The notes under the pieces are model-generated. The model was given only the letters and a program-made list of their open reading frames with translations. It had not been told where the DNA came from and made no database searches. From Lingula anatina (lineage: Eukaryota > Animalia > Brachiopoda), in contig CM120641.1 in assembly GCA_051362555.1 (NCBI GenBank), forward strand, positions 32,866,401-32,930,400: a DNA stretch of 64,000 nucleotides. Reading direction: 5' to 3'. Position 1 is the first letter of the stretch, and each line of letters starts with the position of its first letter. Of the stretch, positions 1-60,973 are shown piece after piece. A program made the translations under genes and the position numbers.

Positions 1-3000
1 AACACCTACCTGTAGAACAGGCGAATTTCAGTGCGGAGATGGTAAATGTATCCCTGGCGCTTATAAATGTGACAACGACAAGGATTGTGCTGATAATTCC
101 GACGAGCTTGGATGCCCAAGTAAGTACCAAACCTGAAAAAAGAAACTTCAGAAAATATAAGTGACTGGTTACATAGAAAAATCTGAATAAAATATTTAAT
201 TAAATGCCTCTTCAAAATAAATCTTTAAGACTTGTCCCTTGCACCGATCTCCCCTAGCAAACACACTCTCATCTTCATTTAAGCGAAAGATTTTACTTAA
301 CATTTTTTTCTCGTTTTATAATTCAGAATATACAATTTCTTGATACAGACGTGTGCCAAAAATATGTATGTAATATTGAATATTCTATCTCTGCAGCCAC
401 GCCAGCGCCGACGTGCCCATCCAGCCAGTTCACTTGCAGCAATGGGAAATGCATTCTAAATGAATGGGTTTGTGACAATGATGATGACTGTGGAGATAAG
501 TCAGACGAACAAAACTGCACAGGTTCTCTCTCTCTCTCTCTCTCTCTCTTTTCGTTTTTTAACACGGAGTTAAGTGGTATACAATAATTTACCAGGTGCA
601 ATGCCAGTATTTTTATTTTTATATTTTGCTTAAAAGAAATTGAATTGAAAATTTTCCTCAGTTTACTCGAAGCGATGAGCTGGTTCATTCTTACAGGAAT
701 GTTGCAATACATGTTGAAAGCAAACAAATCGTAAAGAGACTAGACATTTTACCTCCGCCAAGGAGGTTATGTTTTCACCCCTGTTTGTTTGTTTGTCTAT
801 CTGTCTGTTTGTCTGTCTGTCTGTTTGTCATCAACATAACTCAAAAAGTTATGGATGAATTTCGATGGAATTTTCAGGGTAGGGTTAACTTAGAAGTGAT
901 TAGTTTTTGGTGGTGATCCGGATCAACAATCAATCAATAATCAATAATAAAAAAAACTAAGTTATGGACCGATTTTGATGAAATTTTCAGGAACTGTCAG
1001 AAGTTGGCCAAGGAACAGATGATTAATTTTTGGTGGTGATCCGGATCAATAATCAATCAATAATCAAAAATCAAAAACTGAATCATTATAGAATGAAAAT
1101 TTAGGGGTGAAACGGCATTGGGTGGAGATTTTGCTGCCTTGGCGGAGGTCTGCGCTCTCGGAGTGCTTTTCTAGTTACCAATGTTTCGTGACGTTTCGAC
1201 ACCACTTCAAAGGTCCTTGGTCAGGTTGCTGCCTCGTAGATGTGAACTTCTTAAAAAACAATTTACTTCTTATAATCATTGCACAAGAGACAGCAAAAAA
1301 CCTATTTTGTTGAATGATCTGATTGTCTGTTTTAGTTCTCCTCAATGGATATTGTCGCTCTTCTGAGTTCACCTGTGCCAATAAGGAATGCGTCCCCATT
1401 GGTTACGTGTGCGACAGAGACAAGGATTGTTCTGATGGGTCAGATGAAGTGAATTGTACTGGTAAGAAAATAAACATTATTGTAAACATAGAAAACAACA
1501 GTGAGTTTTCATGGGTGGAGTGGGAGGAAACATGCTATGCCAGTTTGCTTGAATAGCGAAGTGAAATGTAAGTGGACAAGCAAGGGAAAATATAATCCAA
1601 GCAACTTGTTGATATTAAAGGGATAATAACTCTTCGTATGAGATCTATATTTCACAATAAAAACATTGTGAATAACTCATAGAAATAGAATATATTCTGT
1701 TTTACCATAAAAACGGCAGTTATAACTATAAATTCTGATATTTGAGCTTGTCTTTAAACCACGTGACCTCCATTGATAACTATACTCTGTTAAAATCTCT
1801 TAAGAGATTTTAACAAAAAACCAAACTTTTTAGAAAAAAACCAGGGACTAACTTTGAATGTAAAAATGGATTTATTAACCATTGGTAAGTATGGGAAAAT
1901 TGTTGTTTACTCCAGGAAAATTCATTTTTTGGCCGAAACGAAGAGTTATTATCCCTTTAAATATTTAGCATGTTCAAAACAAATACAAAAAAAGAAATTA
2001 CGGGACATTTGAAGAACATCAAGTTTGGGTTTGATATATTTTATACTCTAAAGAAGCAACGGCCAACTTTTTATCTTAAGCAAAAAAGTAAAAATGTATT
2101 ATTGGAGTTTTCACATCTTTTTATTTTAAGGTAGATTATGGTGATTTTTCTTGAACAACGAATTTGAAATGTCAAGAACTAATGTCGAAGTGGGATTTAA
2201 AAAAATTCGCTCCTTAAATAGATGATAATGATAATTTTCCTTGAACAGCCGTGGAGGGAACCTGTTCACCGCTTGAGTTTAAGTGCGCTGACAACAAAAC
2301 CTGCGTGTCCAAACTGTTTCTGTGCGACAGAGACAACGACTGTGGAGATTGGTCAGACGAAACTCTTGACCAATGTAAACGTGAGTCCAATCTACATGTC
2401 TGATCTGAAAGAAATGTATATTGGCTAGGTACACGTGACTCCGCTCAAAGTCTGATTTAAAATGTTCGTGATACATTGGTACATTGGTCAGGAACAAATT
2501 TATTTATTTATTTTTTTATTGCTCTGTCAACTGTCGGGACCTACGATATGAAAAACTGTCTTAATCGATTGCATGAAAAGCGAGTCACTTTATGTTGAGT
2601 CCCCAGTGTATTCGTGACACAAGGAAAATGGTAAACGAAAAGAAATAAGTGTATATACAGACTTTACAGAAAATCACTTAACAAAATAATATTATTATTA
2701 TAATTGTTTAAATGGGTATAATAATAACTGTATAAAATAACGATTGCATCGATTTGCAGGCCCTAGCGCCGGCGAGTGCCCGTATTACGAATTCAAGTGC
2801 AACAACTCCGGAAAATGCATCTCTCGGTCGTTGCGTTGTGACGGAGATGACGACTGCGGTGACAATTCAGATGAGAAGAATTGCGACAACAGTAACGAAA
2901 ATTATTATCTTTTAGATTTATCTTATAGCAATATACTTTCTTATATTGATGTCAAAGTAACAGACTTCATTGTCGTTTCACACACGTTTGAAATTAAAAT

Positions 3001-5506
3001 ATATAAGTTACACAAGTGTGGAATTTAATACAATTCAGTCATTACAGGTTAAGCCTAGGTCCCAACTACGTTTTGGACGCACTGTTTTTTAGGTTCCTTG
3101 CGTCCGGCTAAGACGTAGCTAGATCGCAGGGAAGGAATCAAGTAATTGGTGATTGCAAAGAACTGATCATGTCGAAAAGTTTCTACATGCTGTTTACGTC
3201 CACGATGAACGTGCTCCTTACGCACGAACTCCCAAGTTTCCCCCAATTTTAGGGGCCGTAGATCACACGTAGCAGCCCGTACGTTCGGTTGGGACCTAGG
3301 CTTTACGAAAGACACGTGCGGATTTGGTTTTCAGCGGACAAACATTTTTGTGAAATGCTGCATTTCAGGCATCCTGCAGAATGGCTGTCTTTCCCACCAG
3401 TTTGCCTGCTCTAGTATACGGAAGTGTATTCCCAGGACCTGGGCTTGTGACGGTGACGACGACTGCGGAGACGGCTCAGATGAAACAGCCCAAACATGCA
3501 AAGGTACACTACAGCGTGGAAATTCTTTGTAGGGTTGTATTGTTATGAAAGCGTATTTTATAGATAAGAGTCCACCAGTGGGAGAAACTCGTAACTGATC
3601 TGTTGTAATCGATGGTGGATCCGGGGTGGGCACAGGGTTGAACCCTTAAATTCTGAGGTACCCACCAAAAATTGTCCCCATCTACTGCTGTACATTTTCC
3701 GAGCGAGGCGAGTCAAAAATTGCACCACCCTCTTCCCATTAGGAATATCCTGTATCCGTCAGTGAAAGCTGGTGCGGTAGAGGGTAAACGTAACTGGATG
3801 TATTTAGATTGATAAGTAATACATATAAACCATGAAAAAAATTTAATAAAAAATCTTTTTCATGTGATTGCTACTCAGTTCAGTTACACATGTTGTTATT
3901 CTGTTCCATATTAAGGTATCCATGGCAACCGTACTTGTGCCCCCAACCAATTCCAGTGTCAGACGGACAGACGTTGCTTCCCCATGTCATACCGCTGTGA
4001 TGGGGACAATGACTGCACTGACAAATCTGATGAATTTAATTGCACAAGTATGTGAACTTTTTTTCTTAATTCTGATATATCTTTTCTTCAGTTCTTAAAA
4101 CATTCGTTGTAAAGGAAAAGGGTGTGTAATGCTTCCTAAGTTTGTGCAAAATTTGTGTTCAGATGTAATTTTTCAACGTTTCAAGATTGCCAAATAAAAA
4201 TATTCTGGTTACACTAACCCAGCCTTGTCTGAAGGCCTTCTTCAATTATTCTAATAGAAGAATGAGGCGTAATTACACCAAGATATTTTTTCTATTTCTC
4301 CGGAATCAAGAGCCGACCTGTGCAGCCAGTAGTTTTCAGTGCGGCGACGGCAAGTGTATCCCGAGTACTTGGAGGTGTGACGGGGATGACGACTGCAGAG
4401 ACGGCGCTGATGAAAGGCAGTGCGCTGGTGGGTTCTAACGGTTGCCCGTTCTTAAGGCACTGTCATACCTAGTGTATATAGCACCAACCTATGGCAAAAA
4501 ATGTCCTTACGCATACAAACGCGAGGGGTTCATTAACCTTACGTTGCATGCATCTCGAATACGCTGACAAACATTGGTTTTCGTTCGCATACCCAGAGGG
4601 AGATAATATATTTTGGGCATGTTCAAAAACGATTCACACGCTGCTAGTATCTTCATTATAATACGCAGAAACAGGGTGATTTAATACCCTCACAGTTGTG
4701 CGTAATTTTCTCCATGCGCTAGATGTGACGGAGCCTTTACTGTGGCGTTTAAGCTGAGCTGCATTATACATACTAATAGAGTAAAAACCATTTACGAGAA
4801 ATGTATGAAATATGTTACCAGATATTCATTTAATAATAGAAGCTTTATTCTTTACTAGCTCTAACTTGGTGTTCACATGAAACATATAAAATAAGCATAA
4901 GCGTATGGTGAACGAACCAAAAATAACTGAACAAAGAAGAACAGTGGAAATTATTTTACCTGTCATAAAAAATAAAAAGAATATTCTGCTACTTCTTGAT
5001 TGAAATTTTAAAAAAATCTTCACCCAGCTCCATCCTGTCGCTCCAAAGAGTTTTTATGCCGAGATGAGGCCCAGTGTATTCCCATAGGCTGGCGCTGTGA
5101 TGGAGACAGCGATTGCAAGGATAATTCGGACGAAGATAACTGTGGTAGGTTTCACAGTATGTGGATACAAAATTGCCATCCGCTGTTGATTGATCTTTTC
5201 AAAGGAAATAGCCTTTTAATTTTGCGAGTCCAATATTTTTGGTTAGGATAGAGAAAAATCCATAATCGTATAAAGGTTATTAGAGACACCGGGTGTATTT
5301 TGTATGTTTTTACTCAAAAAATATTTCCCCGCTTCTCCTGCGCCCGTTGCTGTTTCTGTCATATGTTTATAATAAATATAAATTAAGAAATTATCTTATT
5401 CCTAACGCCAAACTAACTTTAATCTAAGCTCAATTGTTGCTTTATGTCTATGATGCAATGCTTTATTTGATTCATGTTATATTTTTCATTAGGTTTAATC
5501 GGCTAG
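1..5506 (+). CDS. 3' part of a multi-LDL-receptor class A (LDLa) repeat protein; 5' end lies outside the window
   Basis: Nine phase-1 exons each encode one six-Cys LDLa module with the DCxDxSDE-type motif: <1-119, 397-522, 1336-1461, 2249-2380, 2760-2891, 3369-3503, 3916-4047, 4311-4427, 5028-5144. A terminal exon at 5493-5506 encodes GLIG-stop, and AATAAA follows at 5608. Confidence 0.9.
751..1174 (+). mobile_element. Non-autonomous Helentron-type element (HINE/DINE-like)
   Basis: Subterminal inverted repeats acctccgccaagg (751) and ccttggcggaggt (1137-1149), a (GTTT/GTCT)n microsatellite near the 5' end, a duplicated ~120-bp internal unit, 3' hairpin gcgctctcggagtgc, CTAG end, and insertion in a T-run. 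Confidence 0.85.
1619..1956. mobile_element. MITE with TTAA target-site duplication (Kolobok/piggyBac-type)
   Basis: Perfect 19-bp TIRs agggataataactcttcgt / acgaagagttattatccct flanked by TTAA (1615-1618, 1957-1960). A second, partial copy lies at 13283-13469. Confidence 0.85.
3052..3302. mobile_element. PIF/Harbinger-type MITE
   Basis: TIRs agcctaggtcccaac / gttgggacctaggct with TTA on both sides. Confidence 0.8.
4455..4736. mobile_element. Degenerate PIF/Harbinger-type MITE
   Basis: Imperfect TIRs aggcactgtcatacctag / ctagatgtgacggagcct with TTA on both sides. Confidence 0.65.
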
Positions 5507-8390: not shown

Positions 8391-11074
8391 GACTGATGCA
8401 ATTCCTCTCTGACTATCAGTTTAGGGAATTTATCTTTTTAAAGAAAATATATGCACATCAGCTAAAATATTTGTTTTTATATTTTTTATCTATTAAGGGT
8501 TATGGGGTAGGAGTAGGGAATGGTCGGACCTCCAGTTTCTCAATTTGTATATAAATGTTTTCCCGTTCTTTTCTGTTCATTGACATCACTAGATAGGCTT
8601 TACCTTTAAGTAGCAAATTTACTTATACTGCGCTCATCACACAATTTAAATTGCAAAGTAATGAACGGTACATGTTTTATCAACTGTCTTTCCCTACTTA
8701 ATATTTAATATATAATATTTAATGATAATATTTATATTCTCAGATTATAGGCCTTACCTCAATTTTCAGGGGAGGCACCACCTGTAACTCTCTGCCGTCT
8801 ATCCATGGCCTGGCCACCATATCCTACGATGTCCACGCCTTGTTTTCTTGCTGCATGTCTTTAGCGGGCATTGAACTTACACACACAGACACCAATACCT
8901 TTACAGTGTACAGTAAGCAAAATAGAGAAACAATACTACAATGTACAGAAATACTAACAAAAAACACAAACATTTTACAGACATGGACAATGACAAAGAT
9001 AAAGGGTATAAGCAGGTTAAAAAAAACAAAGAACACTACACCAAAAGACCCATGCATTTTTATATTATGGATGGATTATAATGACGCGCTTAAAAAGTAA
9101 GTGCATTATTATAATTCATCCATAATATATTTTTCTGCGCCCATGAGCCTTTTATCTCGTCCTTTTTCAGTATTGGTAAGTAGAATATAAGCATGTGAAG
9201 CATACCTTGAATGTAAACAAAGAGGGTCAGTGGAATCGAAGTGATGAATACAATCAACATGCAGGAATTAAAAACAACAAGCCTAGCGGGCTTGTTAGGA
9301 CAGGAATTTAACTTAAATCTTTTTCTAGAAATATTCTTATAATAAAGGTAAATGTTTGATAAAAATATAAGTAGATTTTTATGATTTGATTTTCAAAAGA
9401 ATGAAATTGTAAAAGGTATCTGCAATTTTGTTTTATTTTATTTTATTGGTTTTCTTTTTGTATAATGAGTGAATTTCTCAGCAGACAACCTTCTAGGTTC
9501 GACCCCCTTTCCAGCTACAGACATGTTTATTTTGGTAATTAAACAACATAAAAGATCACAGGAGCTACCCCCCCCCCCACACACACACACACACGCGAAA
9601 CTTTTTTTAAAACCATGCCAGTTCTGAATAGTGAAAAGGGGGACTATGTCATCACCTGCATGTCATCTTCTTTCAAGCAAATATAAGAAATAGTTAAAAG
9701 CAAATGTAAAAAGTAACTAAAACATTAAATCACACCAAGTATATTATCCTTTCGTTATCCTTTCTCCTTACAAAATTAAAGCTACCAAAAAGCTAGACAA
9801 TTCCACATAAATGTTTATAGCAAAAAATATATTATCACTCTATCTTTAATATCATCATCTGTGAAACAAGAAATGAAATGAAAGTTTCTTCAAAGTGCAT
9901 TGTGGATCAGTGTATATTGTGGATACGTGTTCCAGTTTACGCGGACAAGGTCGTCCAATGATGGCCTGGGGCAGGTTAGTAAACTTCAAGTTCATATCAT
10001 GTCAACAATATGCAAGGCAGCCCGTAGCCAGCAATTTCAAAAGGGGGGTTCTTTTTCTGGAAAAGTGGACCTTTTTCTATAAAAACTCCATGTACCTAGA
10101 TCAAATTTTACCCAGAGTGGACCTTTTCCCAGCAAAAAGGGCGGTTCTTTCGAACCCCCCGAACCCCCCCTGGCTATGGGCCTGCAGGGACACTGTCAAT
10201 CATAATTGGGTGAGAGGCATGCGTGGTTTCCCTTCTAAACTATTACAACATTGATTCTTCCCTCCGAAGTAAATGGTTTTTTCCCTTTAAAACGAAGAAG
10301 TTAAGGTGTGTAATCGCTGAATGCATTTCAAACGTAGGTGTATAAACTTTACAATAAAATTTGAGTCTCACTCTCATACGACAACCCCGCGTTCAAACTG
10401 ACAGCATGGTGACGACAGCAACGCCCCCAGCCGACAATCTACGATTGGAAGTCTAAGAGCGGGCAATTATGAACGTGTGATCACTCATCAGCACACAGAG
10501 CAGTGGGATGGACATATTGCGTTGCACTCAAGAGGAGAACAAAAGACATGAAGTGAGAGCGATTTAGTTCTGGGAACCGCCTTCAAATGTCATGTGATGC
10601 TACACCAATGCATCGCACTTGAGGATAGTTTCTTTACTAGCACAAAACGCCGAATGTTTCGTCTTTTTCCCTATGGTGTGCTTCTGGAATTCGACTCTTC
10701 AATCCATGCGGACTCGTCGCTCTGGGAAATGTACATGTACAAATAACACTCAGCTATTAGCCCGGACGTCGAATAACCGCCGCGGAAAATTAATCTTAAA
10801 TGGACTTAAATCCAAGATACTGGAGGTGGGTGAGTGCCACCATATCATACTCTCTTTTCATTTTTGTCATATTCCTCTTACGCCCATGTTTCTAGGTGGA
10901 TCTTGATTGCCCTTTGAGACTAGTATCAAAAGCTTCACATGCCCTATTTAGGTCACGCTCGTCGAGTTTTGTTGTTTCTTTCTAAGGCTGATGTGCATTT
11001 GCTCTCAAGTGTGAGTGAGTGTTGTTCCCTTTTAATGTACAGACACAGAAGTACATAAAACCGTCACCGACGAG

Positions 11075-12505
11075 GGAGGGGGGTTGGTAAATTGAAAAAT
11101 ATCTAATATCATTCTGATTTCTTTTTACAGGATTTTATTGGGGGGACGGGGGGACAAGGGGGGTTGGTAAATTGAAAAAGATCTAATATCATTCTTATTT
11201 CTTTTTACAGGACACAGAAGATGAGTGCCTACCATCGAACATTGACTACTCTTTGGAACAAGAATTTAAGGTTAGTAAATTTAATTTTTTGGAGGGATAG
11301 GTAAATTGAATAAGTCTAATCTTGTTTTATTTCTTTTTACAGGACATAGAAGATGATGAGCAACTCTACCCAGACACTGACTTCACTTGTCGATAGATGT
11401 TAAGGTAAGTAAACTTCTTTTTTTGGGTGGGATTCGGGGTGGGGGTGTAGGGGTTGGTAAATTGAAAAAGATCTAATATCATTCTTATTTCTTTTTACAG
11501 GACACAGAAGATGATGAATGCCTACCATCGAACATTGAGTACTCTTTGGAACAAAAATTTAAGGTTAGTGAATTACATTTTTTTTTTGGAGGGGATAGGT
11601 TAATTGAAAAAAATCTAATCTAGTTTTATTTCTTTTTACAGGACATAGAAGATGATGAGTGACTCTACCCAGACAATGATTTCACCTGTCTATAGATGTT
11701 AAGGTTAGTAAACTCCTTTTTTGGGGGGACGGGGGGACAAGGGGGGGTTGGTAAATTGAAAAAGATCTAATATCATTCTTATTTCTTTTTACAGGACACA
11801 GAAGATGATGAGTGCCTACTATCGAACATTGACTACTCTTTGGAACAAGAATTTAAGGTTAGTAAATTTCATTTTTTGGAGGGGATAGGTTAATTGAAAA
11901 AGATCTAATATCATTCTTATTTCTTTTTACAGGATCTGGAAGATGAAGAGCGACTCGACCCAAACACTGACTTCACTTGTCGATAGATGTTAAGGTAAGT
12001 AAACTACTTTTTTTTTTTGGGGGGGGGGGGGGTTAGTAAATTGAAAAAAGATCTAATATCATTCTTATTTCTTTTTACAGGACCTGGAAGATGAAGAGCG
12101 ACTCGACCCAAACACTGACTTCACTTGTCGATAGATGTTAAGGTTAGTAAACTTCTTTTTTTGGGGGGATGGGGGGTGGGGTGTAGGGGTTGGTAAATTG
12201 AAAAAGATCTAATATCATTCTTATTTCTTTTTACAGGACATAGAATATGATGAGTGCTTACAATCGAACATTGACTACTCTTTGGAACAAGAATTTAAGG
12301 TTAGTAAATTTCATTTTTATTTGAGAGGATAGGTAAATTTAAAAAAATCTAATCTAGTTTAATTTCTTTTTACAGGACAAAGAAGATGATGAGCGATTTA
12401 ACCCAGACACTGACTTCACTTGTCGTTAGATGTTAAGGTAAGCAAACTTTTTTTTTTTTTTTTTTTTGGGGGGGGGGGGGGGGGCAGGTCGGGTAAATTG
12501 AAAAA
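11075..12505 (+). repeat. Tandem array of ~130-160-bp units, each acceptor + 60-63-nt exon-like core + donor + short T/G-rich intron (order A B A B A B B A B)
   Basis: Ten copies of ...ctaat...tttctttttacag, nine followed by gaca/gacc/gatc...ttaag and then gttagt or gtaag. Confidence 0.9.
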
Positions 12506-13280
12506 AATGCAATAATAAACAATGCTGTCAATCAACATTGAATTTTAATCATGAACTACAGATAACATGGTCAATAACAGGAGCGAACAGGAGAGATATT
12601 ATCTGACAGTATTCCAAATTATCTTTGTTGATCCATCCTCTATTTTTGGTCTTCCAACAGAAAAAAATAGATACACGTCAATGTAAACATTAAAATCTGA
12701 CCGTCTTCCAGAAGGCCCAGAAGACAGTTTCAATCCGCCCCTGCAATAAGATTACAGTTTCAGGACCACGAGAGTTCAAATTCACATAATGAAAATCACA
12801 ATATTTGAAAAATGGTGACAGTGCATAAAATAATATTACATAATGTTTAAAGACATAAATACTAATACAACTGCTTATGTGAAAATACAGAAAATATGCA
12901 GAGATTCAAGTGGATGGGTGTTAATAGTCACATCTTGAAAATGCCAAAAATATTTTTTTTGAAAACTTATTTGCAATATTAAACAATATTTACCTGCATA
13001 ATTATCACTGCTTCCTTATTATGGATACTTATCTAGCAGAGAATTTAACCTGTAGGAGTTTACAGTATCAGCAAGTGTGTTTTACGTAATCTCATTTAAT
13101 GTCCACTTGAATCTTAATTGACTTTATAGCTCTGAACTTATACCCAAGGGAAAATTACAAATGTGACTAGTAAAGGTCTTCAGGCCCATAAGTCGCACCT
13201 TAAAAAGATGCAGAAAATAGGTCATTTTGTCTATTTTGATACAATAATAAATAATGTTTATAACAGCACAATCAACACTT
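12505..13280 (-). repeat. Inverted copy of the ~740-bp internal unit of the 56.3-59.6 kb HINE
   Basis: For example, tctgacagtattccaa..atctttgttgatccatcctc (12602-12640) and aaggtcttcaggcccataagtc are reverse complements of sequence at ~59365-59403 and ~58785-58807. Confidence 0.85.
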
Positions 13281-13282
13281 AA

Positions 13283-13469
13283 AGGGATGATAACTCTTTG
13301 TATGAGATCTATATTTCACAATAAGACATAGTAAACAACTCGTAGAAATATAATATATTCTGTTTTACCACTAAAAAGGCAGTTATAGCTATCATTCTGA
13401 TGTCTGAGCTTGTCATTAGACCACGAGACCTCCATAGATGGCTATACTCTGTTATAATCTCTTAAGAGA
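13283..13469. mobile_element. 5' half of the TTAA MITE family seen at 1619-1956
   Basis: ttaaagggatgataactctttgtatgagatctatatttcacaataa... is colinear with 1615-1808. Confidence 0.85.
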
Positions 13470-16429
13470 CGGTGTTCCAGCAGCTCATTACCACAGCATT
13501 GAAAACGAATGTTTCAAGGCAAGTGCCCGAGAAAAAAGGTAACATTATTGATAGTTATTAAAAATTATATTTTAATGATGTTATGAACTGTAGGCCTGAT
13601 AAACATCTAGCATTTACAGGTTGACTTACGAAGTGTCCATACTTGTTTATACGTATTATACTTTTTCTTTTGCTCTCGATGCTCTATTACAAAGATATCA
13701 TTTGAACTTGTAGGCTACCAAAAGTCTTCGTAACAACAATAGAATAAGGCAGCAACTTAGTCTTCATCCTTCAATGATAACCGTAAGGTATTTCCATACA
13801 CCTAATGGTATGTCTTTTTTACCCACTAAATCTTTCCATAATGTCAAATAAGATTAAACTGAATGTTGACTTTAATAAATGCAGTGTGTGTAATAAGATA
13901 TAAAACTTTACAAAATCTTGACTTAGTTTTGATATCTATTTCAGAACTGAATACGGTATGTGGGATTGGCGTCATCTTTGCTGTCAACGTTTTAGAGGCA
14001 TTTTTCATAACATGCAAAACACCAAATATAAGAAATACATCGAAAAATGTACCCAGTTCATATCCATAAGACATATAGAGAATAACTGAAAGATTTTGGA
14101 CCATGGCTAATTATTACGGAGAATCACAATGCAGGTTAAAACAAAGCCAATGCACCGAATGGGTCTAACTATGATTGAAATAGATATAACTCTTTGTTGG
14201 AAAAATACTGTTAATACACGCGTACATACAAGTATGTAAATAGTTTTCACTAATAATTGCAAATTCTGGCGATATTATTTTGTTTATGGTTAACTTTAAA
14301 AACTTGTTAGATGTGATTTTATCGAGATGAATTAGATATTTTTTCACTTGTGCGTTTGAACGTACTTTGATATCTTATCTAACTTAAGTGGGGTAGTCCT
14401 CATTTCATATGTATATAATTACATATAGTTCATACGTATTTAATTGGTTAATCTGCACTACATGTAAGTCTTGGGTCTATATGAGAAGTGTGTATGGGTT
14501 AATTTCTCATGAGGAACATTGGTATTGCCCACAGTAATGATTGTCCACATTTCAGCCATTGGTTTGGAATTAGTATTTATAAAATATTTACCTCTGATGA
14601 CAGGGGAATTGTTTAGCATTTGAGAAAATCATAATCTAAGTCCTTTCTGTTACCCTTACTAATTCTAATCCTTTTCCTCCTGAAGAATGCTGGGTGCACA
14701 CGGCCATTCCTCGAGGGGGGATCGCATGTCACTGCCTTTCCGATTTTCTCAAGTGTGGTTGAACAATTACCACTTTACACGAGTACCTTTTATTTTCTAA
14801 ATCAAAAATGAACTTAAAATCGAAATTGGACAGTTACTTGAGATTATATCAATGATCCAAACGATTTCAAAGCAAGCTTGCTTTATTCCTTACTTGTTGT
14901 TCCACATTTCCTGTTAAGTAAAGAGCAATGAAATGAAAGTATTGATGTTAAACTGTATATTTTTGTTATAACATTTCTTACAAAGGTGGGCAGTTTTCCT
15001 TAAAGAAGGTTTCCTTATTCATTATAGAATTAATTGTTCCTGGGATGTTGAAAAAAATTAATCCAGAATGAAGTTATTGGAGAGTATTAATTGCATATCA
15101 TTAAACAACCTACACCAATCTGCAATTTAAGCATTTGAAAATAATTTCTGTTAATAAGGTAATTGATTTTGTAATGTATAATTAGAAATAAAGTTTAAAG
15201 CTTTCTGGTGTCATATTGTCTGGTTTGTATTTATTGCTAGTAAAACATAGTTGTACCCCCCCCCCCCCTACACACACACACACACAAAGCATATATTGGA
15301 TTGAAACGAGACAGAATGATGCTTTTATTTTTATCCCTGGGCCTTGCACATTGTAGTAAAATTATCTTTGTATGTTTTACAAAATGTTTCGTTTTTGTGC
15401 CCCCCTCCCCTTTACCAAAATCATTAGCGTGCCAATGCCACGTCTGCCACAAATACCACTGATCGAAGCAAACAAATACCTACAATGTAGACGATGTCTG
15501 AGAAGAGGCTTATAAGCCTGATGCTATTTACACATAATGATCAAATAGATGGTATCGATTCAAATGGCTTTGTGAACAAGTAAATACTTAACTACAAAAT
15601 AAAGGGCCGAATATAAGAATGTTGGTTAATTTTAGCATTTTTATAGCTTTTTAGGAAAATTGCCATTTTTTCTTATGTGGCATAAAAGGGAGATAAAATA
15701 CTAAAACACTAAAATGCAGAATGATGGTGAAGGGGTTAATAATCGCGCAAAAAGCACTTTAGCTCCAAAATTGGTCTGATCTTTTCATCCAGAACTTGGT
15801 CTACTCCCGTTCAAACTAAATCCATAGCAGCCTACTTAAAATTTGAATTGGTTTACAATATGAGGCATGTTCCTCTTGTTATAAAAAGGGCACACTTTTT
15901 TCATCGAATTGATGACTGTCGTATATAGCTAGGGTGAATATGTTTTCTCCACGAACGATGTGTAAAGCAGCACGAGCGTTTCGGAGATGAATAAATAATG
16001 CTAACGAAATTGTGAAAAAAGTTTATTATTCTTTATCATAATCTTATCTCTATATATAAAGTATTTTGTTCTCATACAAAAAATCAAATATCTAAAATTA
16101 CATTTTACTTCGTTTTTATTCTCAGCCAATTGACAAGATATATACAACTCGATGCAGATTTAAATGCGATTTGGAATTACTTTTTTTCTATTGCAAGCAT
16201 ACACACGCTAGACAGCAGTCGCACGCAAGAACGCATATATATATATATGCACGCATGCACTTGAGTAGCCTACCCACGCATACAGTGCAGATGTAGTACA
16301 AATGACCAATGACATAGGGCCTACGTGTACACACACTTGCACGTACAACACACGGGTTGTTCATTCAACATGCTGGCTGCCAAGTCATGGAATGCTCGGC
16401 GTTATATCATAATGCCAATTTCAGTGTGT

Positions 16430-18392
16430 CTATGAACTTATGTCATCCCTTCTCTTTCTCCAGAAGGGGGTTTGTGGTCTGCGGCGTTTGGGTTTCGCAG
16501 CTTCTGCGGGCTTTTCGCTGGGACTGACTTGAAGGGGGGCCACGCCTCTTTTCTTTTGCCAAGGAAATCGAAACTTAGGTCGCTTGGTGGAGCTAGGACA
16601 GGTTGGCGTTTCAGCACGGGGTGCCTCGGGTCTGGGAGCTTTCGGCAGGTACGGTGCCAGGCTGAGGTCCTGGTCGTACTGGGGACAGTTCGGCAAGGTC
16701 ACATTAAAGTGACATGCTTGTGACGCTTTCTCACTAGGTCGAGGTCTAGAAAATACCAAAAACAATTATACATGATTGATGTTTATGTGATTTTTGTGAG
16801 CGTGAAGATATTTTTTGTGTGATGAATAATAAAGAATAATAGCTTATGATGAGAACAAAACTGGAAAAATAATCAAACACCGTTTATATTCTCATTAATC
16901 AGAATTGTTATTTAAAAAAACGAAAAAAAAAAGATTATTACAAAATAAGGTTTACCTAAAGCAGGAACTGCTGATCTCATCGGGTTCATCGGTTATACTG
17001 GCAGTAGGTGAACGTTGGGGCTCGAGGAGCTCAGAGAACTTTGTTTCTGATTTACAGCCAGACTCGGGTCTGAAAATATAATATCTTAGTTAACTGCACA
17101 TTCGTGCATATCCAAAACAGAAAAATCATTAAAAGTTTAAGTGACATCTGATAACACTGCAAACAAAATACATGTACATAATAGGAAAAGGGCAAATAAT
17201 AAACTCGTGTGCAAACAAACAAAATAGTAGTGGTAGTAATTGTAGTAGTAAAACTATATTCACAAGACTAAAGCACTGTAACTTATATTAGCGTATTAGT
17301 TGCATACCTTATTGACTGACTAGCATCATGAAGATGTGTCTCGACACGGGAACATTTCATTGTCTCGGGGACAGCACCGGGTAATGCTGGGCAAATTGCC
17401 TCGTACATCTGAGGCGTCAGTTTTGGCATTTGATTCAGAGGATGCTCTGTGAAAACCAGGCCGTCTTCTAAACGCTTTTTCTTTTTTCCACTGGGAATAG
17501 GATTGAGCTGAAAGAGGTTCTTCTTGATATTTTTCAAATGCTGCTTTGCAGTTTTCTTTGGCTTGGTCGGCCGCTCGAATTCATAAGGACTTACGTGGAC
17601 TTCATGGAGGTGTCCATCTGGTAAATGGTATACCTGTGTAGGAGCAGTCGCTGTGTCGAAAATGGACGAGAGGTTTCCCGGCTTCTTTGTTTTTGGCCGG
17701 GCTGACTGGAAAGGAGCCGGTTCCAGTAATTTGCTTATGTCTGCTGTAAGCTCCTTTTGCAGGTCTGCCAGCAGTTTCTGGGCATGTGGGGCGACCTGTG
17801 ACTCTGGGAAACTTGATGGCATGGTGCTGGTCATGTTTGGTGCGTTTGGCTGACCCCCCATCTGATTTCTATGTGCCATGCTTTTAGGTGTCGCAAATTT
17901 TGAATTCTTCGACGTGGAAAATGCTAAGCTTTTGGCATTAGGACCCTGCATATTCTGGTCTTCGTTTAAGGTGGCACTTTTATTACCTGGAGGTCGTAAC
18001 ACAACATGTTCGGCGCCAGATGCTTTGGGCTCAAAGTTTGAAGACGCAGGTGAAGTTGGCTTAGGCAGAACTTTTTCATCTGTCGATTTTTCTATGGGCG
18101 TCATACGATATGGAATAAATTCACTCTCTGAGGAGGTCGAATGAAGTGTGGCCTTGGGGTCCATCTGCTGCACTGGACGACCACACCCAGCTTCGAACTC
18201 TCTCATTGGGCGCTTGAACTTCTCCAGCGGGACCTCTCCGTCTCTTGACACAGCACGAAAAATGTCTGAATTCAAGACAATGTCTTCATCTTCTCTGCGT
18301 CTTGTGCGCTGTTTTTCATATATAGAATTAATCGTTCCATCATCTACTCGCATCGACTTCAGACTTTTAAAACAAAGGCATAGACAACTCAT
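16430..18392 (-). CDS. Three-exon uncharacterised, Pro/Ser/Lys-rich, probably disordered protein (~504 aa)
   Basis: Exons 18392-17308, 17069-16956 and 16745-16430 join in frame through two canonical phase-2 GT-AG introns. The start is MSCLCLCFKS. The 1.1-kb first exon is open and GC-elevated, and AATAAA lies on the minus strand at ~16115. Confidence 0.8.
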
Positions 18393-18421
18393 CTTGCTGC
18401 TTTGCAATATCACTTAGATAT

Positions 18422-19011: not shown

Positions 19012-19138
19012 GGCGTTTCGATAGTCCGAATGTTCATTGGTCCGAATAAAACCGTAGCATTTTCATCAGTTTTTATCAAGGGCTCGTTGGTCCGTAGGTT
19101 CTATAGTGAACGTTCGGACCAATGAACCTTCGGACTAT
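19012..19138. mobile_element. Degenerate copy of the MITE family at 55686-55856
   Basis: atagtccgaatgttcattggtccgaa ... ttcggaccaatgaaccttcggactat; it abuts and truncates the AAA pseudogene. Confidence 0.75.
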
Positions 19139-19540
19139 GCGTTTCTGAAATCTCCTAAGGAAAGCAGGACCCAGCTCCCAGGGACAGTTTGTTGTAGGCC
19201 TACATAGAAGGAATATTCTCTCAGAACTTCCAGAACTGTCTGCTCCCTCCATCTGTTTCAAAAGTTCCGTTTTCACTCTACGTGAGTGCTCTTCCTCATG
19301 TGAGCTCCTTTTGCTACACACGCTGTCAATTTCATCAATAAACACGACCGATCTTCTTCCCTGGCTAGTAGCAGGCTGAAACAGGTCTTTGATCCTCTCT
19401 CCAACCTAACTTGAAATGAGATCCGAGTTTGAGACACTAGAAGCCAGACCTGATTTCTGATGAAACTGCCTGAGCTAGTCAACTTTTGCCAGTGCCTGGA
19501 GGACCATACAGTAGGATTCTTTGCCAAGGTTTACGCCCAC
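19137..19540 (-). pseudogene. Disrupted VPS4-like (meiotic clade) AAA ATPase fragment
   Basis: GRKPWQRILLYGPPGTGKS (Walker A), FIDEIDS (Walker B), SRRVKTELLKQMEG and TNCPW...FLRRFQKRI (SRH) are present, with in-frame stops and frameshifts. Confidence 0.88.
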
Positions 19541-20519: not shown

Positions 20520-51819
<31,300 letters not shown>

Positions 51820-53212: not shown

Positions 53213-55115
<1,903 letters not shown>

Positions 55116-58100
55116 ATGAGACGACTTGGCAGAGTTACAGGATGGTTTCTAAATGTCACAGGTGCCGAAAATGGAAGTTGCGGCTTAATGAGATCGAATC
55201 TGAGATGCCGAATGTGTTCCACAGGTGCGATTTTTTTTACTGATAATACTAGACGTTTTAACAAAATTGATTGTCAATGTCAGCAGTTTTTTGTCGTCTG
55301 CACATGTTACTGATTTACATGTGCGTTTAAGTCCTAATTATGGTTTCTGATATACATTGGATGTGCAATCGCATGACAAGGCCTCAAAAACTTAAATGAC
55401 GACCAGTTTGAGGATCCACCGTGATGTGGACGCTCTTAAAATTTTATATTATAGATTCAGATAAGTTTTAAAAATACCCTGACAACTGCTAGGTCCCATA
55501 TCTTGATATGTCATTCCGTATGTCATCAACCATACTTTTACTCTAAGGATGCCCAAAAATTGGCACATTTTATGTATACAATAACAAAAATTCTGCCATT
55601 GCTGTTCTCGATTCTAAATTAATTGTAACTGTACATGTGAGTTACTGAAAGACTTCCCTCTTGGTTTCTGGCTGTGTCCAGTATGGGGCCGTAGCGATAG
55701 TCCGAAGGTTCAATAGTCCGAAGGTTCATTGGTCCGAATGTTCACTATAGAACCTTCGGACCAATGAACCCCTGATTAAAAGATCAGTATTTGTTACCAC
55801 TTTTCGGACCAATGAACCTTCGGACCAATGAACCTTCGGACTATCGAGACGCCCCCTCCAGTATGGCAAAGACTGCATTTGATAAGCCTGAATGACACCG
55901 TCTTTCCATGTTGCCGTGCGGTGACAAACTATAGTATGTCATTGGGATGTGACTGCCCTTGCAGTGTGATTCTCATGATGAATACTCACATGAGTAAGCA
56001 TGATATCTATTCTTTAGAACCTCAATTTTCACTTGGGCATGAACCTGGGGAAGTTTAAAGCAGGTCAAGCTATTTTATTCACATTTTACCCAAAAATAAG
56101 TTTAACAATGTCTTGAACAAATGCAAATTTTATTTTTATTGCAAATAAATTAAAGTAGAAATGTCATTCAATATAGAATAATGTCTTTGAACAGTAACAA
56201 GTGAATATTTAATAATAATAGGCAACTACAGTATGAAACTTTTGCATCATAAATGGCAGGTGTTAGTTTCCTAACTTCTTTTTATGTACAGACACAGATG
56301 TGTCTGTACATATAGCCATCATCTGCGTCTGTCGTCGCCGTCGCCGTCGTCGCCGTCGCCGTGCACTTTTACCGATAACACGATAAGTGGAAAACTGTTT
56401 TTTCTTTTGGCTTGAAACTTACGGAACTGATGAATATTCATAATACGCAGGTCAAGTTCGAAAATCAGCATGATCGGCTCACTTATAAGGAATTTATGCT
56501 GTTTTTTCACTTTTTTCAGCATATATGCAGCACCGATAACACGATAAGTGGAAAACCATTTTACCTTTTGGCTTGAAACTTACAGAACTGATGAATATTC
56601 ATAATACGCAGGTCAAGTTCGAAAATCAGCATGATCGGGTCACTTATAGGGAATTTATGCTGTTTTTTCACTTTTTTCAGCATATAAACAGCACCGATAA
56701 CACGATAAGTGGAAAACCATTTTACTTTTTGGCTTGAAACTTACAGATCTGATGAATATTTATAATACGCAGGTCAAGTTCGAAAATCAGCGTGATTGGG
56801 TCATTTTTAGTGAATTTAGGCTATTTTTTCTCTTTTTTCAGCATATATGCAGCACCGATAACACCATAAATGGAAAACCATTTTACCTTTTGGCTTGAAA
56901 CTTACAGAACTGATGAATATTCATAATACGCAGGTAAAGTTCGAAAATCAGCATGATCGGGCCATTTTTAGGGAAGTTATGCTGTTTTTTCACTTCTTTC
57001 AACATATATGCAACGCTAATAACACAATATAAGAAAAACAGATAGGCCAATTGTCATTATACTCACAGGAGTAGTCAAACTAACTAAAACGCAGGTTGAG
57101 TTCCAAAATCAGCATAATCGGGCCATTCTTTTAGAAGTTATGCTGTTTTTTCTTATTTCCTCAGATTCAATTGTTAGGCATGTTAACAGTCTCATTATTG
57201 AACTAATAAGATACGTAAAAGTGTTTGTTTGACATTTCCTGCATCTTAATAACATTGTTAGTTGATTATGTAAAAATGATGGTAAACTTGTTATTGTGTA
57301 TTATGTTATAAAGTGTCAAAAATGGAAATAAACAAATATCATTGCAGTTTGTCAGATTCAATCATCTACTATATTCATTATCTCAGAATGGAGGAAATTG
57401 GACATTTAACACTATTCTATTGATATTTTTCCCATCTCATCAATTTTCTTAGTTGATCATATACAAATGGTAGAAAACTGTTTATTTTTTTTTATGTTAA
57501 AAAAGTGTTTTAAAAATGGAAGTAAACCCATTGCAGAACAGTGCTGTCTTGTTTCAGCATATATGCAGCACCGATAACACGATAAGTGGAAAACCATTTT
57601 ACCTTTTCCCTTGAAACTTACAAAACTGATGAATATTCATAATACGCAGGTCAAGTTCGAAAATCAGCATGATCGGGTCATTTTTTAGGGAAGTTATGCT
57701 GTTTTTCACTTTTTTCACCATATATGCAACACTGATAACATGATAAGTGAAAAATCATTTTACCTTTTGGCTTGAAACTTGCAGAACTGATGAATATTTA
57801 TAATATGCAGGTCAAGTTTGAAAATCAGTATGATTGGGTCATTTTTAGGGAAGTTATGCTGTTTTTCACTTTTTTCATCATATATGCAACACTGATAACA
57901 TGATAAGTGGAAAACCATTTAACCTTTTGGTTTGAAACTTGCAGAACTAATGAATATTCATAATACGCAGGTCGAGTTTGAAAATCAGCATGATCGGGTC
58001 ACTTTTAGGGAAGTAATGCTGTTTTTTCACTTTTTTCAGCATGTATGCAACACCTTTGTGCTATATGATGGTACTGTATGGATAGCAGTCTTTAAAATTG

Positions 58101-60973
58101 TCCCTTGGGTGATCCCTAATTAAATTAAGGTCTATAAAGTCACTTGCCTACTCATTAATTTTCAATTGACCATTAAATGAGATTACATAAAACACTCCTT
58201 GATATTTCCCTGTAAAGTCCCATAGGTTTAGCTCTCTTAACTGTGTCACAAAATTAGGATTTGGTGATAATTGTGCAGATAAATGGTGTTTAACATTGCA
58301 AATAATTTACAACAAAAAGAATGTGTTATGCCAACATGCTATAGATGCATAACAGTGCTTTATTTTTCTCAAACTTGGTGGGGTTATTAATATCAAGTTA
58401 ATACAGCTAGATTAAAAGTTTGAATAGCAGCTTTATTGGAATTTTTTACGTTTTATTTAAAATTTTTTTAAAATTATTTTTCAAACACTAGCATCTTCAA
58501 GATGTGATTTTATACTCCCATCCACCAGAAGTGCTGTGCATTTTCTGTATTTTTATTAAATTTATGCATTTTTGAAATTTTCATTTTTCTCATTCTGGCA
58601 CTTTCTTATTGTAAACTTGAACTCTGATGGGCCTGAAGCCTTATGCTTTTACTTTCATCAGTGTTACCTGTTGTGCATAATTAAAATTTGATGTTGACTG
58701 TGCAGTTAAACATAATGTATTATTGCATCAGAATTGGCAGTCTCCTGTTTTTGTGCATTATTGTTTTCTGCTTTTCTTAAGGTGTGACTTATGGGCCTGA
58801 AGACCTTTGATGACAAATTTGTGTGGTCAGTCTGTAAATTCCCTTTGGGTATTCACTAGGCTAAGTTCAGTGTTATAAACTCATTTGCCTAATTAATTGT
58901 CCATTAAATGAAATTTCGTAAGGCACACTTGTTGATATTTCCCTGTAAACTCCCAAAGGTTAAGCTCTCTGCTAGATAACATAGTGTCCATAATAAGGAA
59001 GCAGGGAATAGCAGCTTCATTGGGATTATATTTCTGTTGTTTTCTTTTAAATTTTTTCTCCAACACTGGCATTTTTAAGATGTGACTTTTAACTCCCATC
59101 CACCTGAGGCTCTGCACATTTTCAGTATTTCCACATTAGCAGTTGTATTGGTATTTATGTCTTTAAACACACTGTAATATTATTTTATGCACTGTCATCA
59201 TTTTTCATATATTGGGACTTTCATCATGTGAATTTTAACTCTCATGGTCCTGAAACTGTAATCTTATTGAAGGGGTGGATTGAGACCATCTTCTGGGTCT
59301 CCTGGAAGACAGTCAGACTTTAAAGTTTATATTAACGGGTTTCTGTTGGAAGACCATCAAAATGGAGGATGGATCAACAAAGATACCTTGGAATACTGTC
59401 AGAAAATATCTCTTGATCTGCTCCTGTTATTGACCATTTTACCTGTTGTGCATGATTAAAAATCAGTGTTGACTGACTGTGCTATTATAAGCATTATTTA
59501 TTATTGCATCAAAATTGACAAAATGACCTATTTTGCATCTTTTTTTTTCTGTTTTTTGTCTGTACATTTGACAGCTTTGCTGCCTTGTTAGTAGTTTATA
59601 CTGTATACTAAATCATTACTATAAAAATTTAGTAGATGTGTATGTAATTTAAAGAAATCTTTAAGAACAAAAATAAGGACTGCTCAGTTGATGGCCTAAA
59701 CCACATCCTCTATGCAGATGACCTTGTCCTGTTATCAACTAGCAAGGAAGGACTGCAAGGCCACTTATTAGCACTTCAAACATATTGCAGAAAATGGAAG
59801 CTTCAGGTAAATGAGAAAAAGTCAAAAGTTGTCATCTTTAACAAACAAGGGAAACTAGACAAGAATATTAACTTTTATATAAATAACAAAATCATAGAAT
59901 CTGGAAGAATTTCACATACTTAGGAATAACCTTCACAAACACAGGGTCTTTAAAAAAAGCAATTGAAAACCTGAAACAAAATGCAATGAAAGCATCTTTT
60001 GCACTGAAAACAGCACTTTCCTCACACCAAATATCTTCTCCCCTACTATACATGAAACTCTTTGATAAAACCATCAAGCCAATCTTACTCTATGGTTGTG
60101 AAGTTTGGGCAGAGGAGCTATTTAAAGATAAGAAAATCTCCCTCCAAAAAATTAATAAAATGCCTTTTGAGCAGCTCCATCTAAAAACGTGTAAGTGGGC
60201 TCTTGGTGTACGGAAATATGCAAGCAACAATGCAAGTAGGGCAGAACTTGGAAGGCTGCCACTCTACACAGATATTGTATTCAGTACCAAATTCATTTCA
60301 AAGAACTTGCTCCAAATAGAATCGTGAAACAAATCTATGAAAGAGAAATCCATTTAAAAGGGCCTAGCTGGTCAAGCTCTCTGAAAACTTTTATAGACCT
60401 CTGGGGACTGTCAACAGATCTAAACACTGTAGACCCAAACTTACTTCAAGTAAATGTTATTAAAAAAATTGAAGAACTTTTTTGGACCGATCTGCACAGT
60501 GACAATAAAAGCAAACTAAGAACTTATAAAGCAATAAAGAAATCCTACACTCCAGAAAATTATCTCACAATGAAAGTCCCTCTAAAAGAAATAAAAACAC
60601 TTGCAAAATTTCGAATCAGTGACCATGACCTAGAAATTGAAAGAGGTCGCTACACAAAACCCAAAAAAACAGTAGAAAACCGAATATGTCCACATTGCAA
60701 TGATGTTGAAACAGAAGTGCATTTCCTACTAAAATGTAATGAGCATGTGAACGAAAGAGAAAAAAATGATAAAAATGATACCGCCGCAAATGTCATCTGA
60801 TTTAGAAAAACTTGCCTGGCTTCTCAATCCTCAAAGTGAACACCCCCTAAAAACCGTGTGTCACTTCATCCAACAAACATTTAAAAAAAGACTAGCCTGT
60901 CAATAATAATGAGCAAGTCTACCACAATACAGAACAATGTAATTGTCATTATGTAATATAGGTATTTTTTATC

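What the first reader, a model, noticed from the sequence alone, without database searches (positions are those of the whole stretch)
11030..12505. A satellite whose monomer is a complete intron + microexon, sitting behind a Helentron-like head
Seen: each unit has a branch-point-like CTAAT, a pyrimidine tract ending TACAG, a 60-63-nt core ending TTAAG, a GTTAGT/GTAAG donor and a ~70-100-nt T/G-rich intron. Type A cores are open phase-0 exons (DTEDDECLPSNIDYSLEQEFK). Immediately upstream, ttttaatgtacagacacaga-agtacataaaaccgtca (11032) matches the 5' end of the HINE at 56284 (tttatgtacagacacagatgtgtctgtacatatagccatca). Immediately downstream lies an inverted copy of that HINE's internal unit. 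Established: Helitrons/Helentrons capture gene fragments and HINEs carry central tandem arrays. Inference: a captured acidic microexon pair was amplified as the element's array, giving a mobile, splice-competent exon cassette able to donate repeat exons or form a multi-exon ncRNA.
Basis: partly seen in the sequence, partly recalled or inferred. Interest (0 to 1): 0.8.

Follow-up and report, generated by a model that had tools for sequence, protein, structure and literature searches.

The report
Spliceable exon-intron satellite in a brachiopod
In a lamp shell (Lingula-type brachiopod) a roughly 140-base unit made of one short exon plus one short intron is repeated nine times here and likely thousands of times in the genome; a few RNA reads from other copies join exon to exon, likely by splicing, but this copy is nearly silent, carries stop codons in five of its nine exons and lies between two broken transposon pieces, not inside an intact mobile element.

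Summary
There are nine 60-63-nt cores (four open A, five 62-nt B with stops in every frame) separated by 72-96-nt GT-AG intervals. Their acceptors outscore 51-52 of 53 modelled exons nearby. The head is a true HINE (non-autonomous Helentron) 5' remnant: paralogous flanks run into an intact head. The monomer is abundant: summed contig depth is about 10^3-10^4 times single-copy depth. In one of three poly(A) runs laid closely, two sets of reads (6 and 5 of 179) from divergent paralogs join exon to exon. Most family RNA (30-63 reads per run) crosses the acceptor unspliced, and almost none matches this locus closely. The mobile-cassette reading fails here. The head-array junction is single-copy, the head is cut at about 38 nt, no 3' terminus follows, and the downstream HINE piece is inverted and lacks its end. 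No donor protein or coding constraint was found. Best reading: a decayed local block of an abundant satellite-like family, likely born as a 'mirage' duplication of a whole exon plus intron, with low-level splicing elsewhere. Whether Helentrons spread it is untested, because no assembly was available. The scan noted a similar kind of repeat in another genome (e1-9814498), without RNA evidence.

The parts
10241..11029 (+). Low-copy upstream flank, mildly CpG-rich; paralogs are transcribed, likely in the + sense; candidate donors at 10826/10830
   Evidence: Contig depth 430-1760 over 10700-11049 against about 115 single-copy, i.e. about 4-15 fold; 850-1960 over 10241-10963. RNA up to 23.6x on first-mate-minus, with paralog variants. 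CpG o/e 0.71-0.89 against 0.43 for the window, but other tiles reach 0.77-0.88. Donor scores.
11030..11068 (+). Truncated HINE 5' end: T run, subTIR at 11035, inverted repeat with about 6 nt lost, cut about 38 nt in
   Evidence: hairpin -3.3 against -11.8 kcal/mol for the intact head. 8 reads of X12 run from the same flank into an intact head, and 3 DNA contigs carry the HINE-type T at 11034.
11069..11210 (+). Exon-less unit 0 (G run, branch-point-like CTAAT, acceptor at 11130, core and donor deleted) and the intron piece before A1
   Evidence: one contig 11004-11163 identical at depth 113.3, so the junction is single-copy in X1.
11211..11270 (+). A1 core, 60 nt, open in phase 0 (one codon lost)
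11343..11404 (+). B1 core, 62 nt, stops in all frames; its acceptor and first 20 nt are the most repeated segment laid
   Evidence: depth 951,530 at 11330-11364.
11501..11563 (+). A2 core, 63 nt, open
11642..11703 (+). B2 core, 62 nt, two stops in phase 0
11795..11857 (+). A3 core, 63 nt, open
11933..11994 (+). B3 core, 62 nt, stops
12081..12142 (+). B4 core, 62 nt, near-identical tandem copy of B3
12237..12299 (+). A4 core, 63 nt, open
12376..12437 (+). B5 core, 62 nt, stops
11271..12375 (+). Eight GT-AG intron-like spacers of 72, 96, 78, 91, 75, 86, 94 and 76 nt between the cores (T run, G run, CTAAT, pyrimidine tract)
   Evidence: all shorter than the shortest gap between modelled real exons (143 nt; 52 gaps).
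12438..12506 (+). Last, incomplete intron (donor, T and G runs), broken before its branch point
12507..13277 (-). Inverted fragment of the HINE family's ~730-770-bp internal unit, without a terminus
   Evidence: 75.5% over 842 columns to 58692-59509; ends about 48 nt before the 3' subTIR position.
56280..59587 (+). Reference HINE: 5' subTIR and inverted repeat 56283-56312, GTC-type microsatellite 56331-56362, 161-bp arrays, ~730-770-bp units, 3' subTIR at 59557 and small hairpin

Best explanation
This is a nearly silent, decayed ten-unit block of an abundant Lingula repeat family whose monomer is one short exon plus one short intron, likely born by tandem duplication of a real exon-intron unit and likely non-coding, with splice sites that are likely used at low level in some other copies. 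Shown: the unit anatomy; the A/B alternation with a 294-bp dimer and a B-B duplication; high abundance; exon-to-exon reads from paralogs; a majority of unspliced family RNA; a single-copy head-array junction; no element 3' end. Inferred mechanism: (1) the genome's habit of duplicating exon edges ('mirages'; 4 of 4 long-period arrays in the neighbouring BEACH gene start on an exon 3' edge) once copied a whole short exon with its intron. (2) Slippage or unequal exchange amplified it and split it into A and B types. (3) Copies spread through the genome by a route not shown (Helentron activity or duplication together with the low-copy flank). (4) Where an upstream promoter or host transcript reads through an array, the strong acceptors are sometimes used, but introns shorter than the host's usual ones are mostly retained. 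(5) The 62-nt, stop-containing B exons end any reading frame here, so products would be non-coding or degraded. The HINE head and the inverted HINE piece are likely remnants of separate insertions at T-rich sites, later trimmed by deletion, not the two ends of one element.
For: Anatomy and stops; splice scores; periods 134-148 and 294. Abundance: depth 951,530 and 617,481 at B acceptors and 116,565 and 84,702 at A acceptors, against 113-118 for contigs identical to this locus, i.e. about 700-8,000 fold (summed contig depth is not a true copy number). Exon-exon reads in X10: 6 of 179 laid reads carry an A-like exon end (21 of 25 letters, compared by eye) directly before a B-type start. 5 of 179 go back 11387 to 11341, and 3 go back 11381 to 11348. 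Unspliced versions would need at least 167 and 178 nt, and reads are at most 151 nt. These two joints have zero depth in the DNA contigs. Unspliced reads across the acceptor: 43 of 179, 63 of 216, 30 of 142. Reads at 99% or better: 0, 4 and 2. RNA per unit of DNA depth is about 11 and 190 times lower than on the adjacent HINE unit in X10 and X16, and zero in X13. Junction 11050-11084 is at depth 113.3; 8 X12 reads run from the flank into an intact head. No 3' subTIR within one mismatch lies between 11035 and 27639. Synonymous changes: 2 of 8 in A (18% possible) and 4 of 15 in B (20% possible), so no clear coding constraint. Mirages in the same window (PMC3087553 passages).
Against: Pieces of the same HINE family touch both ends of the array, which is unlikely by chance, and array length and monomer size resemble HINE central repeats (140-180 bp, short arrays; PMC7492417 section 10). 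The conservation peak on branch point, AG and the first 20 exon nt across thousands of copies may mean selection rather than neutral decay, though it may also be a contig or aligner effect. One paralog junction reads as a 63-nt in-frame exon (my reconstruction by eye), which fits a live coding master gene. Exon-exon reads come from one run only: 0 at those joints in X11 and X12, and only 24 of 142 loose-end rows were shown. They could be intron-less DNA copies missed by contigs, or template-switch chimeras. Only 6% of X10-X13 and 25% of X16 were read, tissues are unknown, and the stretch held no expressed spliced gene as a positive control. Low read identity could partly reflect polymorphism between animals. 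No progenitor gene was found.
Confidence: 0.55

Rival explanations
1. Helentron cargo: the monomer is the central repeat of a HINE subfamily and is spread by rolling-circle transposition; this locus is a rearranged, dead member.
For: True HINE head directly upstream in the array's sense, and a HINE internal piece directly downstream. Summed depth of the monomer is of the same order as that of the HINE unit (3e5 against 6e5). Oyster Cg_HINEs carry short arrays of 140-180-bp monomers, and related flanks can carry unrelated arrays (PMC7492417 sections 7 and 10). Truncated and differently oriented arrays occur in Helitron debris (PMC12628747 passages).
Against: The junction is single-copy. Paralogs of flank plus head continue as a normal head. 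There is no microsatellite and no 3' subTIR or hairpin, and the downstream piece is inverted and lacks its end. The monomer has no similarity to either internal repeat of the HINE at 56280. The flank upstream of the head is itself shared by several copies, which a HINE's own transposition would not carry; one contig joins that flank (10975) to an array acceptor (11457), letters between unknown.
Confidence: 0.25
2. Living repeat-exon protein gene family: a master gene with many 63-nt phase-0 exons encodes an acidic 21-residue repeat protein; this block and most copies are its pseudogenes.
For: 4 of 4 A cores are open and symmetrical. One paralog read set appears to join a 63-nt open exon in frame to the next exon (by eye). 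The low-copy upstream flank is transcribed on the same strand and has good donors at 10826/10830. An earlier unchecked note describes a giant tandem-exon gene elsewhere in this genome (e1-10624575).
Against: B acceptors are 5-10 times more abundant than A acceptors, and paralog B cores reconstructed from contig inserts are also mostly 62 nt (table 5c, by eye). No clear synonymous bias. No relative among 1 and 785 candidates, although the collection holds RefSeq Lingula proteins. The three hits are unrelated repeat ORFs. Secreted acidic proteins were not found among Lingula shell proteins (PMC4595640 passage).
Confidence: 0.15
3. Spliced-leader RNA or other structured small-RNA gene array: each unit gives a short exon, a donor and an Sm-like U run.
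For: A-type donors are followed within about 12 nt by an A-U(6)-GG stretch resembling an Sm site (consensus recalled); the units are tandem and high-copy.
Against: Every unit has its own branch point and acceptor. No pile-up of reads joining the core's 3' end to varied mRNAs is listed, and exon 3' halves are barely covered. Folding z-scores are +0.2 to +1.2 for 4 units. The best Rfam E-value is 1.6, far below gathering.
Confidence: 0.02
4. Chance splice-like motifs in an ordinary AT-rich satellite.
For: All units descend from one ancestor, so the signal is one event, not nine; the minus strand also has acceptors scoring 9.2 and 11.2.
Against: Branch point, tract, AG and donor are all in correct order and spacing. 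There are 10 acceptors at 12.0-13.4 on + against 4 at 6.4-11.2 on -. Reads join exon end to exon start.
Confidence: 0.03

Closest known systems
Amphioxus 'mirage' minisatellites (Adh3, globins BflGb6/BflGb9; PMC3087553, abstract and passages read)
   Same: Tandem copies of exon-intron boundaries with AG/GT signals, units up to 150-160 bp, turnover by unequal exchange; the same process is visible in this window.
   Different: Mirages copy one boundary of a host gene's own exon, are reported locus by locus and are said not to disturb normal splicing. Here the unit holds a whole exon and a whole intron, has no host gene, is shared by likely thousands of copies, and some copies appear spliced to each other.
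HINE / DINE-1 / Cg_HINE non-autonomous Helentrons with central repeats (PMC4067079 passages; PMC7492417 abstract, section 7 and section 10 part 1)
   Same: T-rich site, 5' subTIR with inverted repeat, short array of ~140-160-bp monomers; the element at 56280-59587 is a typical member.
   Different: No microsatellite, no 3' subTIR or hairpin, single-copy junction, inverted downstream piece. The passages read do not describe central repeats that are exon-intron units.
Tandem-exon protein genes such as primate NBPF/Olduvai arrays
   Same: Alternating two exon types encoding acidic repeats, amplified in tandem.
   Different: Units here are about 140 bp rather than kilobases, B exons break the frame, and no protein or coding constraint was found.
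Human F7 IVS7 37-bp VNTR reiterating a splice donor (PMC1557585, search listing only)
   Same: A tandem repeat that multiplies a splice site.
   Different: One site only, one locus, inside a functional gene.

Membership tests
HINE (non-autonomous Helentron) | 5' subTIR with adjacent inverted repeat, a few nt from a T-rich end | tested here: inconclusive
   subTIR at 11035 after a T run; inverted repeat partly deleted, hairpin -3.3 against -11.8 kcal/mol. Homology shown, integrity not.
HINE (non-autonomous Helentron) | Microsatellite after the head | tested here: not met
   Present at 56331-56362 in the reference element, absent after 11068.
HINE (non-autonomous Helentron) | Central tandem array | tested here: met
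   Array follows the head by position; its monomer is unrelated to the reference HINE's own repeats.
HINE (non-autonomous Helentron) | 3' subTIR plus stem-loop in the same orientation | tested here: not met
   No 3' subTIR within one mismatch between 11035 and 27639 on +; downstream piece inverted and cut before the terminus.
HINE (non-autonomous Helentron) | Interspersed copies with the same flank-array junction | tested here: not met
   Junction bin 11050-11084 holds one contig at single-copy depth in X1 at 82% likeness. Differently joined subfamilies are not excluded.
HINE (non-autonomous Helentron) | Empty site with TT target and no duplication | not testable with these tools
   No assembly held; joint 10975 to 11457 has unknown letters between.
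Mirage minisatellite | Tandem unit spans an exon-intron boundary with splice signals | tested here: met
   Both boundaries in each unit.
Mirage minisatellite | First unit overlaps a real exon of a host gene | tested here: not met
   No host gene found: no ORF with a family match in 9877-11620, no listed splice joint from the flank into the array.
Tandem-exon protein-coding gene | Symmetric open exons throughout | tested here: not met
   4 of 9 open; 5 of 9 are 62 nt with stops in all frames; all nine joined give 12-19 stops per frame.
Tandem-exon protein-coding gene | Purifying selection on the peptide | tested here: inconclusive
   2 of 8 and 4 of 15 variants synonymous against 18-20% possible; numbers too small.
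Tandem-exon protein-coding gene | Spliced mRNA from the locus | tested here: not met
   No GT-AG skip joint listed on this locus in 5 RNA runs (51 joint rows hidden); exon-exon reads come from divergent paralogs.
Spliced-leader RNA gene array | Leader exon found at the 5' end of many mRNAs | tested here: not met
   No such loose-end pile-up listed at donors; depth at most about 26x on exon 3' halves.
Spliced-leader RNA gene array | Conserved stem-loops around donor and Sm site | tested here: not met
   z-scores +0.2 to +1.2; no Rfam match near gathering.
Satellite DNA (classical long heterochromatic arrays) | Long arrays at defined chromosome regions | not testable with these tools
   Only abundance was measurable; array lengths and locations elsewhere are unknown.

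The most novel reading that the evidence does not exclude
A satellite-scale family (thousands of monomers, on the order of a megabase) whose repeat unit is a working exon-intron module, kept splice-competent by selection on its branch point and acceptor, transcribed from a low-copy promoter-like flank into multi-exon RNAs (some in frame) and dispersed with Helentrons: a mobile, spliceable satellite that can seed repeat exons into genes.
Probability: 0.2. Interest if true: 0.8.

Novelty: new variant of a known kind. Interest (0 to 1): 0.5.

Why it matters
Satellite monomers are usually traced to transposon parts, and exon-edge duplications (mirages) are reported as local events. This family appears to bridge the two: a complete exon-intron unit amplified to satellite abundance, with read evidence that some copies are still spliced. 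Thousands of diverged copies of one splice module in one animal would be a natural experiment on minimal intron length, splice-site decay and exon birth. It would also allow a direct test of whether Helentrons spread ready-made exons. Ten literature searches returned no listing that describes such a family in Lingula or a satellite of this build. The library lacks most subscription journals. If the family is just neutral debris, the interest is moderate.

Tried and rejected
The look-up of sequencing runs: no RNA holder listed (no evidence either way); 9 DNA rows in 3 studies, share at most 0.34. Rfam: 3 matches at E 1.6-4.4, all far below gathering. Folding: no stable structure in 4 units. Metagenome pattern scans: 0 hits, then 5 single-match loci with only short 31-54-column matches at 79-85%, taken as chance. 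Protein searches: 0 of 1 and 0 of 785 candidates (weak, short query). 3 hits among 1.84 billion representatives were rejected as summed weak matches to unrelated repeat ORFs: 20-42% identity, no acidic motif, partly on intron-derived residues. Pfam: nothing for the A-core ORF or the two upstream ORFs. The ESM Atlas gave no answer. The minus-strand gene at 16433-18413 was meant as a splicing positive control but had almost no reads. My gene model over-called short exons (81), so 28 were dropped before scoring. I considered that the 'head' is only a decayed array acceptor (score 23 against 38 for the HINE head) and rejected it. Earlier-finding look-ups by sequence gave nothing relevant. The supplements of PMC13121700 held as text (3 files) had no hit for rolling, helitron, satellite or intron; its repeat tables and figures may not be among them.
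Full report
Setting. The window is animal DNA. An exon of the FtsJ-type methyltransferase at 54488-54751 is 98% identical to a RefSeq Lingula anatina protein and at most 69% identical to the other 119 listed hits, so the organism is Lingula or a close brachiopod. The array lies between an LDLa-repeat gene (about 1-5500, +; one exon checked) and a minus-strand gene (16433-18413), upstream of a BEACH-domain gene (20520-51819, +). No assembly was available.

The observation. All features described are present. Nine cores, in the order A B A B A B B A B, each have CTAAT 27-28 nt before a TTTTACAG acceptor, end in TTAAG, and are followed by a GT donor. Spacers are 72-96 nt. TRF finds periods of 134-148 and a 294-bp dimer. 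I modelled the BEACH gene to get species-own splice matrices and kept 53 of 81 model exons. Array acceptors beat 51-52 of these 53, and donors beat 26-50 of 52. CTAAY at that position occurs before only 2 of the 53. The signals are strong and mainly on the + strand, but they descend from one ancestor and count as one event. All five B cores are 62 nt and carry stops in all three frames. And all spacers are shorter than the shortest gap between modelled real exons (143 nt). Variants among copies show no clear synonymous excess (2 of 8; 4 of 15).

The head. 11030-11068 is the best match in the window to the HINE head at 56280 (score 38; best tile elsewhere 24), and the subTIR 11-mer occurs nowhere else but in that HINE. 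Reads settle the homology: in run X12, 8 reads cover the same upstream flank and run on into an intact head, and 3 DNA contigs carry the HINE-type base at 11034. At this locus the inverted repeat has lost about 6 nt, and the head is cut about 38 nt in and fused to the G-rich part of an array intron. That junction is covered by one identical contig at depth 113.3, the single-copy level (a second identical contig has 118.5). No microsatellite follows, and no 3' subTIR lies within 16 kb on the same strand. The piece at 12507-13277 is the HINE's ~730-770-bp unit, inverted, 75.5% identical, and ends about 48 nt before the terminus position. By the features listed in PMC4067079 (passages) and PMC7492417 (section 7 and section 10 part 1), the element at 56280 is a HINE, but head plus array here is not a complete one.

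Abundance. Contigs of DNA run X1 pile up on the monomer: 951,530 and 617,481 at B acceptors, 116,565 and 84,702 at A acceptors, against about 115 for single-copy sequence, i.e. about 700-8,000 fold. The tool warns that summed contig depth is no copy number, and 1088 of 2178 contigs fit two places, so I read this only as 'likely thousands'. About 8,000 monomers would be roughly 1 Mb, or 0.3% of the 329-Mb assembly reported in PMC13121700 (passage); this is a rough inference. Depth peaks on the branch point, acceptor and first 20 exon nt, and falls to a few thousand at two of the three donors laid. So copies diverge more in the exon's 3' part and the G run; whether that is selection or a contig effect is open. 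The flank 10700-11049 is repeated about 4-15 fold. One contig joins the flank (10975) to an array acceptor (11457) with unknown letters between, which is compatible with flank and array being linked in another copy.

RNA. Five 2026 RNA runs were laid (6% of X10-X13 and 25% of X16 read). At 88% likeness the array has 0-5x depth, against tens to more than 1,000x on the neighbouring HINE unit. Relative to DNA depth this is about 11-fold lower in X10, 190-fold lower in X16, and nil in X13. At 82% likeness on 10700-11720, X10, X11 and X12 gave 179, 216 and 142 reads, of which 0, 4 and 2 were 99% alike. Almost all are first-mate-minus, which in most stranded libraries means RNA in the sense in which the splice signals work. 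The main signal is one divergent paralog read straight through its acceptor (43, 63 and 30 reads with intron letters). In X10 alone, 6 reads have an A-like exon end (21 of 25 letters, by eye) directly before a B-type start, and 5 reads from 5 starts return from 11387 to 11341, where the match begins at the AG that ends every core. For these two joints an unspliced molecule would need at least 178 and 167 nt, and reads are at most 151 nt. The DNA contigs show neither joint. I take them as likely spliced products of other copies. Caveats: one run, small counts, contigs drop rare variants, only 24 of 142 loose-end rows were shown, and no expressed spliced gene lay in either stretch as a control. 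By eye, one junction reads as a 63-nt open exon joined in frame to the next, while paralog B cores rebuilt from contig inserts are mostly 62 nt.

No donor gene. Searches with the A-containing frame and an A/B alignment found nothing. The three HMMER hits are unrelated repeat ORFs. Pfam and Rfam are blank. These are weak negatives for a 21-residue unit.

Mechanism. I checked this window: 4 of 4 TRF arrays with period 39-78 inside the BEACH gene begin on a modelled exon's 3' edge. The most economical origin (inferred) is a duplication of that kind that took a whole short exon with its intron, followed by amplification, A/B divergence and dispersal. Strong acceptors are used occasionally where a transcript crosses an array, while unusually short introns are mostly retained (inferred). 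B exons would end translation, and decay of such RNA follows from general knowledge of premature stops (recalled). The HINE pieces on both sides are best read as separate insertions at T-rich sites, later trimmed. Their presence on both sides keeps the cargo hypothesis alive for the family (0.25). A live coding master gene (0.15), a spliced-leader array (0.02) and chance motifs (0.03) are less likely.

Verdict. The specific claim of a mobile HINE cassette is not met at this locus and is untested for the family. It works like a mirage minisatellite scaled up to satellite abundance, but it is not a member of that class (no host gene) nor a complete HINE. New variant of a known kind; interest 0.5; novel case probability 0.2, interest 0.8. 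Other papers seen: PMC12628747, PMC9659126 and PMC4595640 (passages); PMC1557585 and PMC3902484 (listing only).

Noticed in passing
window 29775-29866, 36543-36637, 42904-43438, 49071-49211: Four tandem arrays (periods 39, 48, 78, 67) each start on an exon 3' edge of the BEACH gene, and three repeat a GT one period on: mirage-type duplications. 35385-35450 looks like a further degenerate copy of the exon end at 35336.
   Followed up: partly
window 16433-18413 (-): Multi-exon gene with a 376-codon open frame and no Pfam match; almost no reads over 16266-17200 in three RNA runs.
   Followed up: partly
window 19079-19540 (-): Intronless AAA ATPase fragment (PF00004, E 3e-16) with stops just upstream, likely a processed pseudogene piece, interrupted by a repeat that also occurs at 55713-55825.
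   Followed up: partly
window 59648-60900 (+): Frameshifted reverse-transcriptase remnant (PF00078) directly after the HINE's 3' end.
   Followed up: no
window 56280-59587: Complete-looking 3.3-kb HINE carrying two unrelated internal repeats (161 bp and ~730-770 bp); the long unit is also seen head-to-tail in RNA and DNA records (joints 13238 to 12507 and similar).
   Followed up: partly
window 13279-13469 and 1615-1807; 10020-10195: Two other high-copy interspersed repeats near the array, both well represented in RNA reads.
   Followed up: no
window 10700-10770: Paralogs of the low-copy flank are transcribed on one strand (up to 24x), and 5 molecules share an end at 10767 in X11; identity of this sequence unknown.
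   Followed up: no
window 1-5500 (+): Gene made of consecutive single-exon LDLa repeats that appears, by eye, to end in a very short last exon near 5493; only one exon was checked.
   Followed up: no
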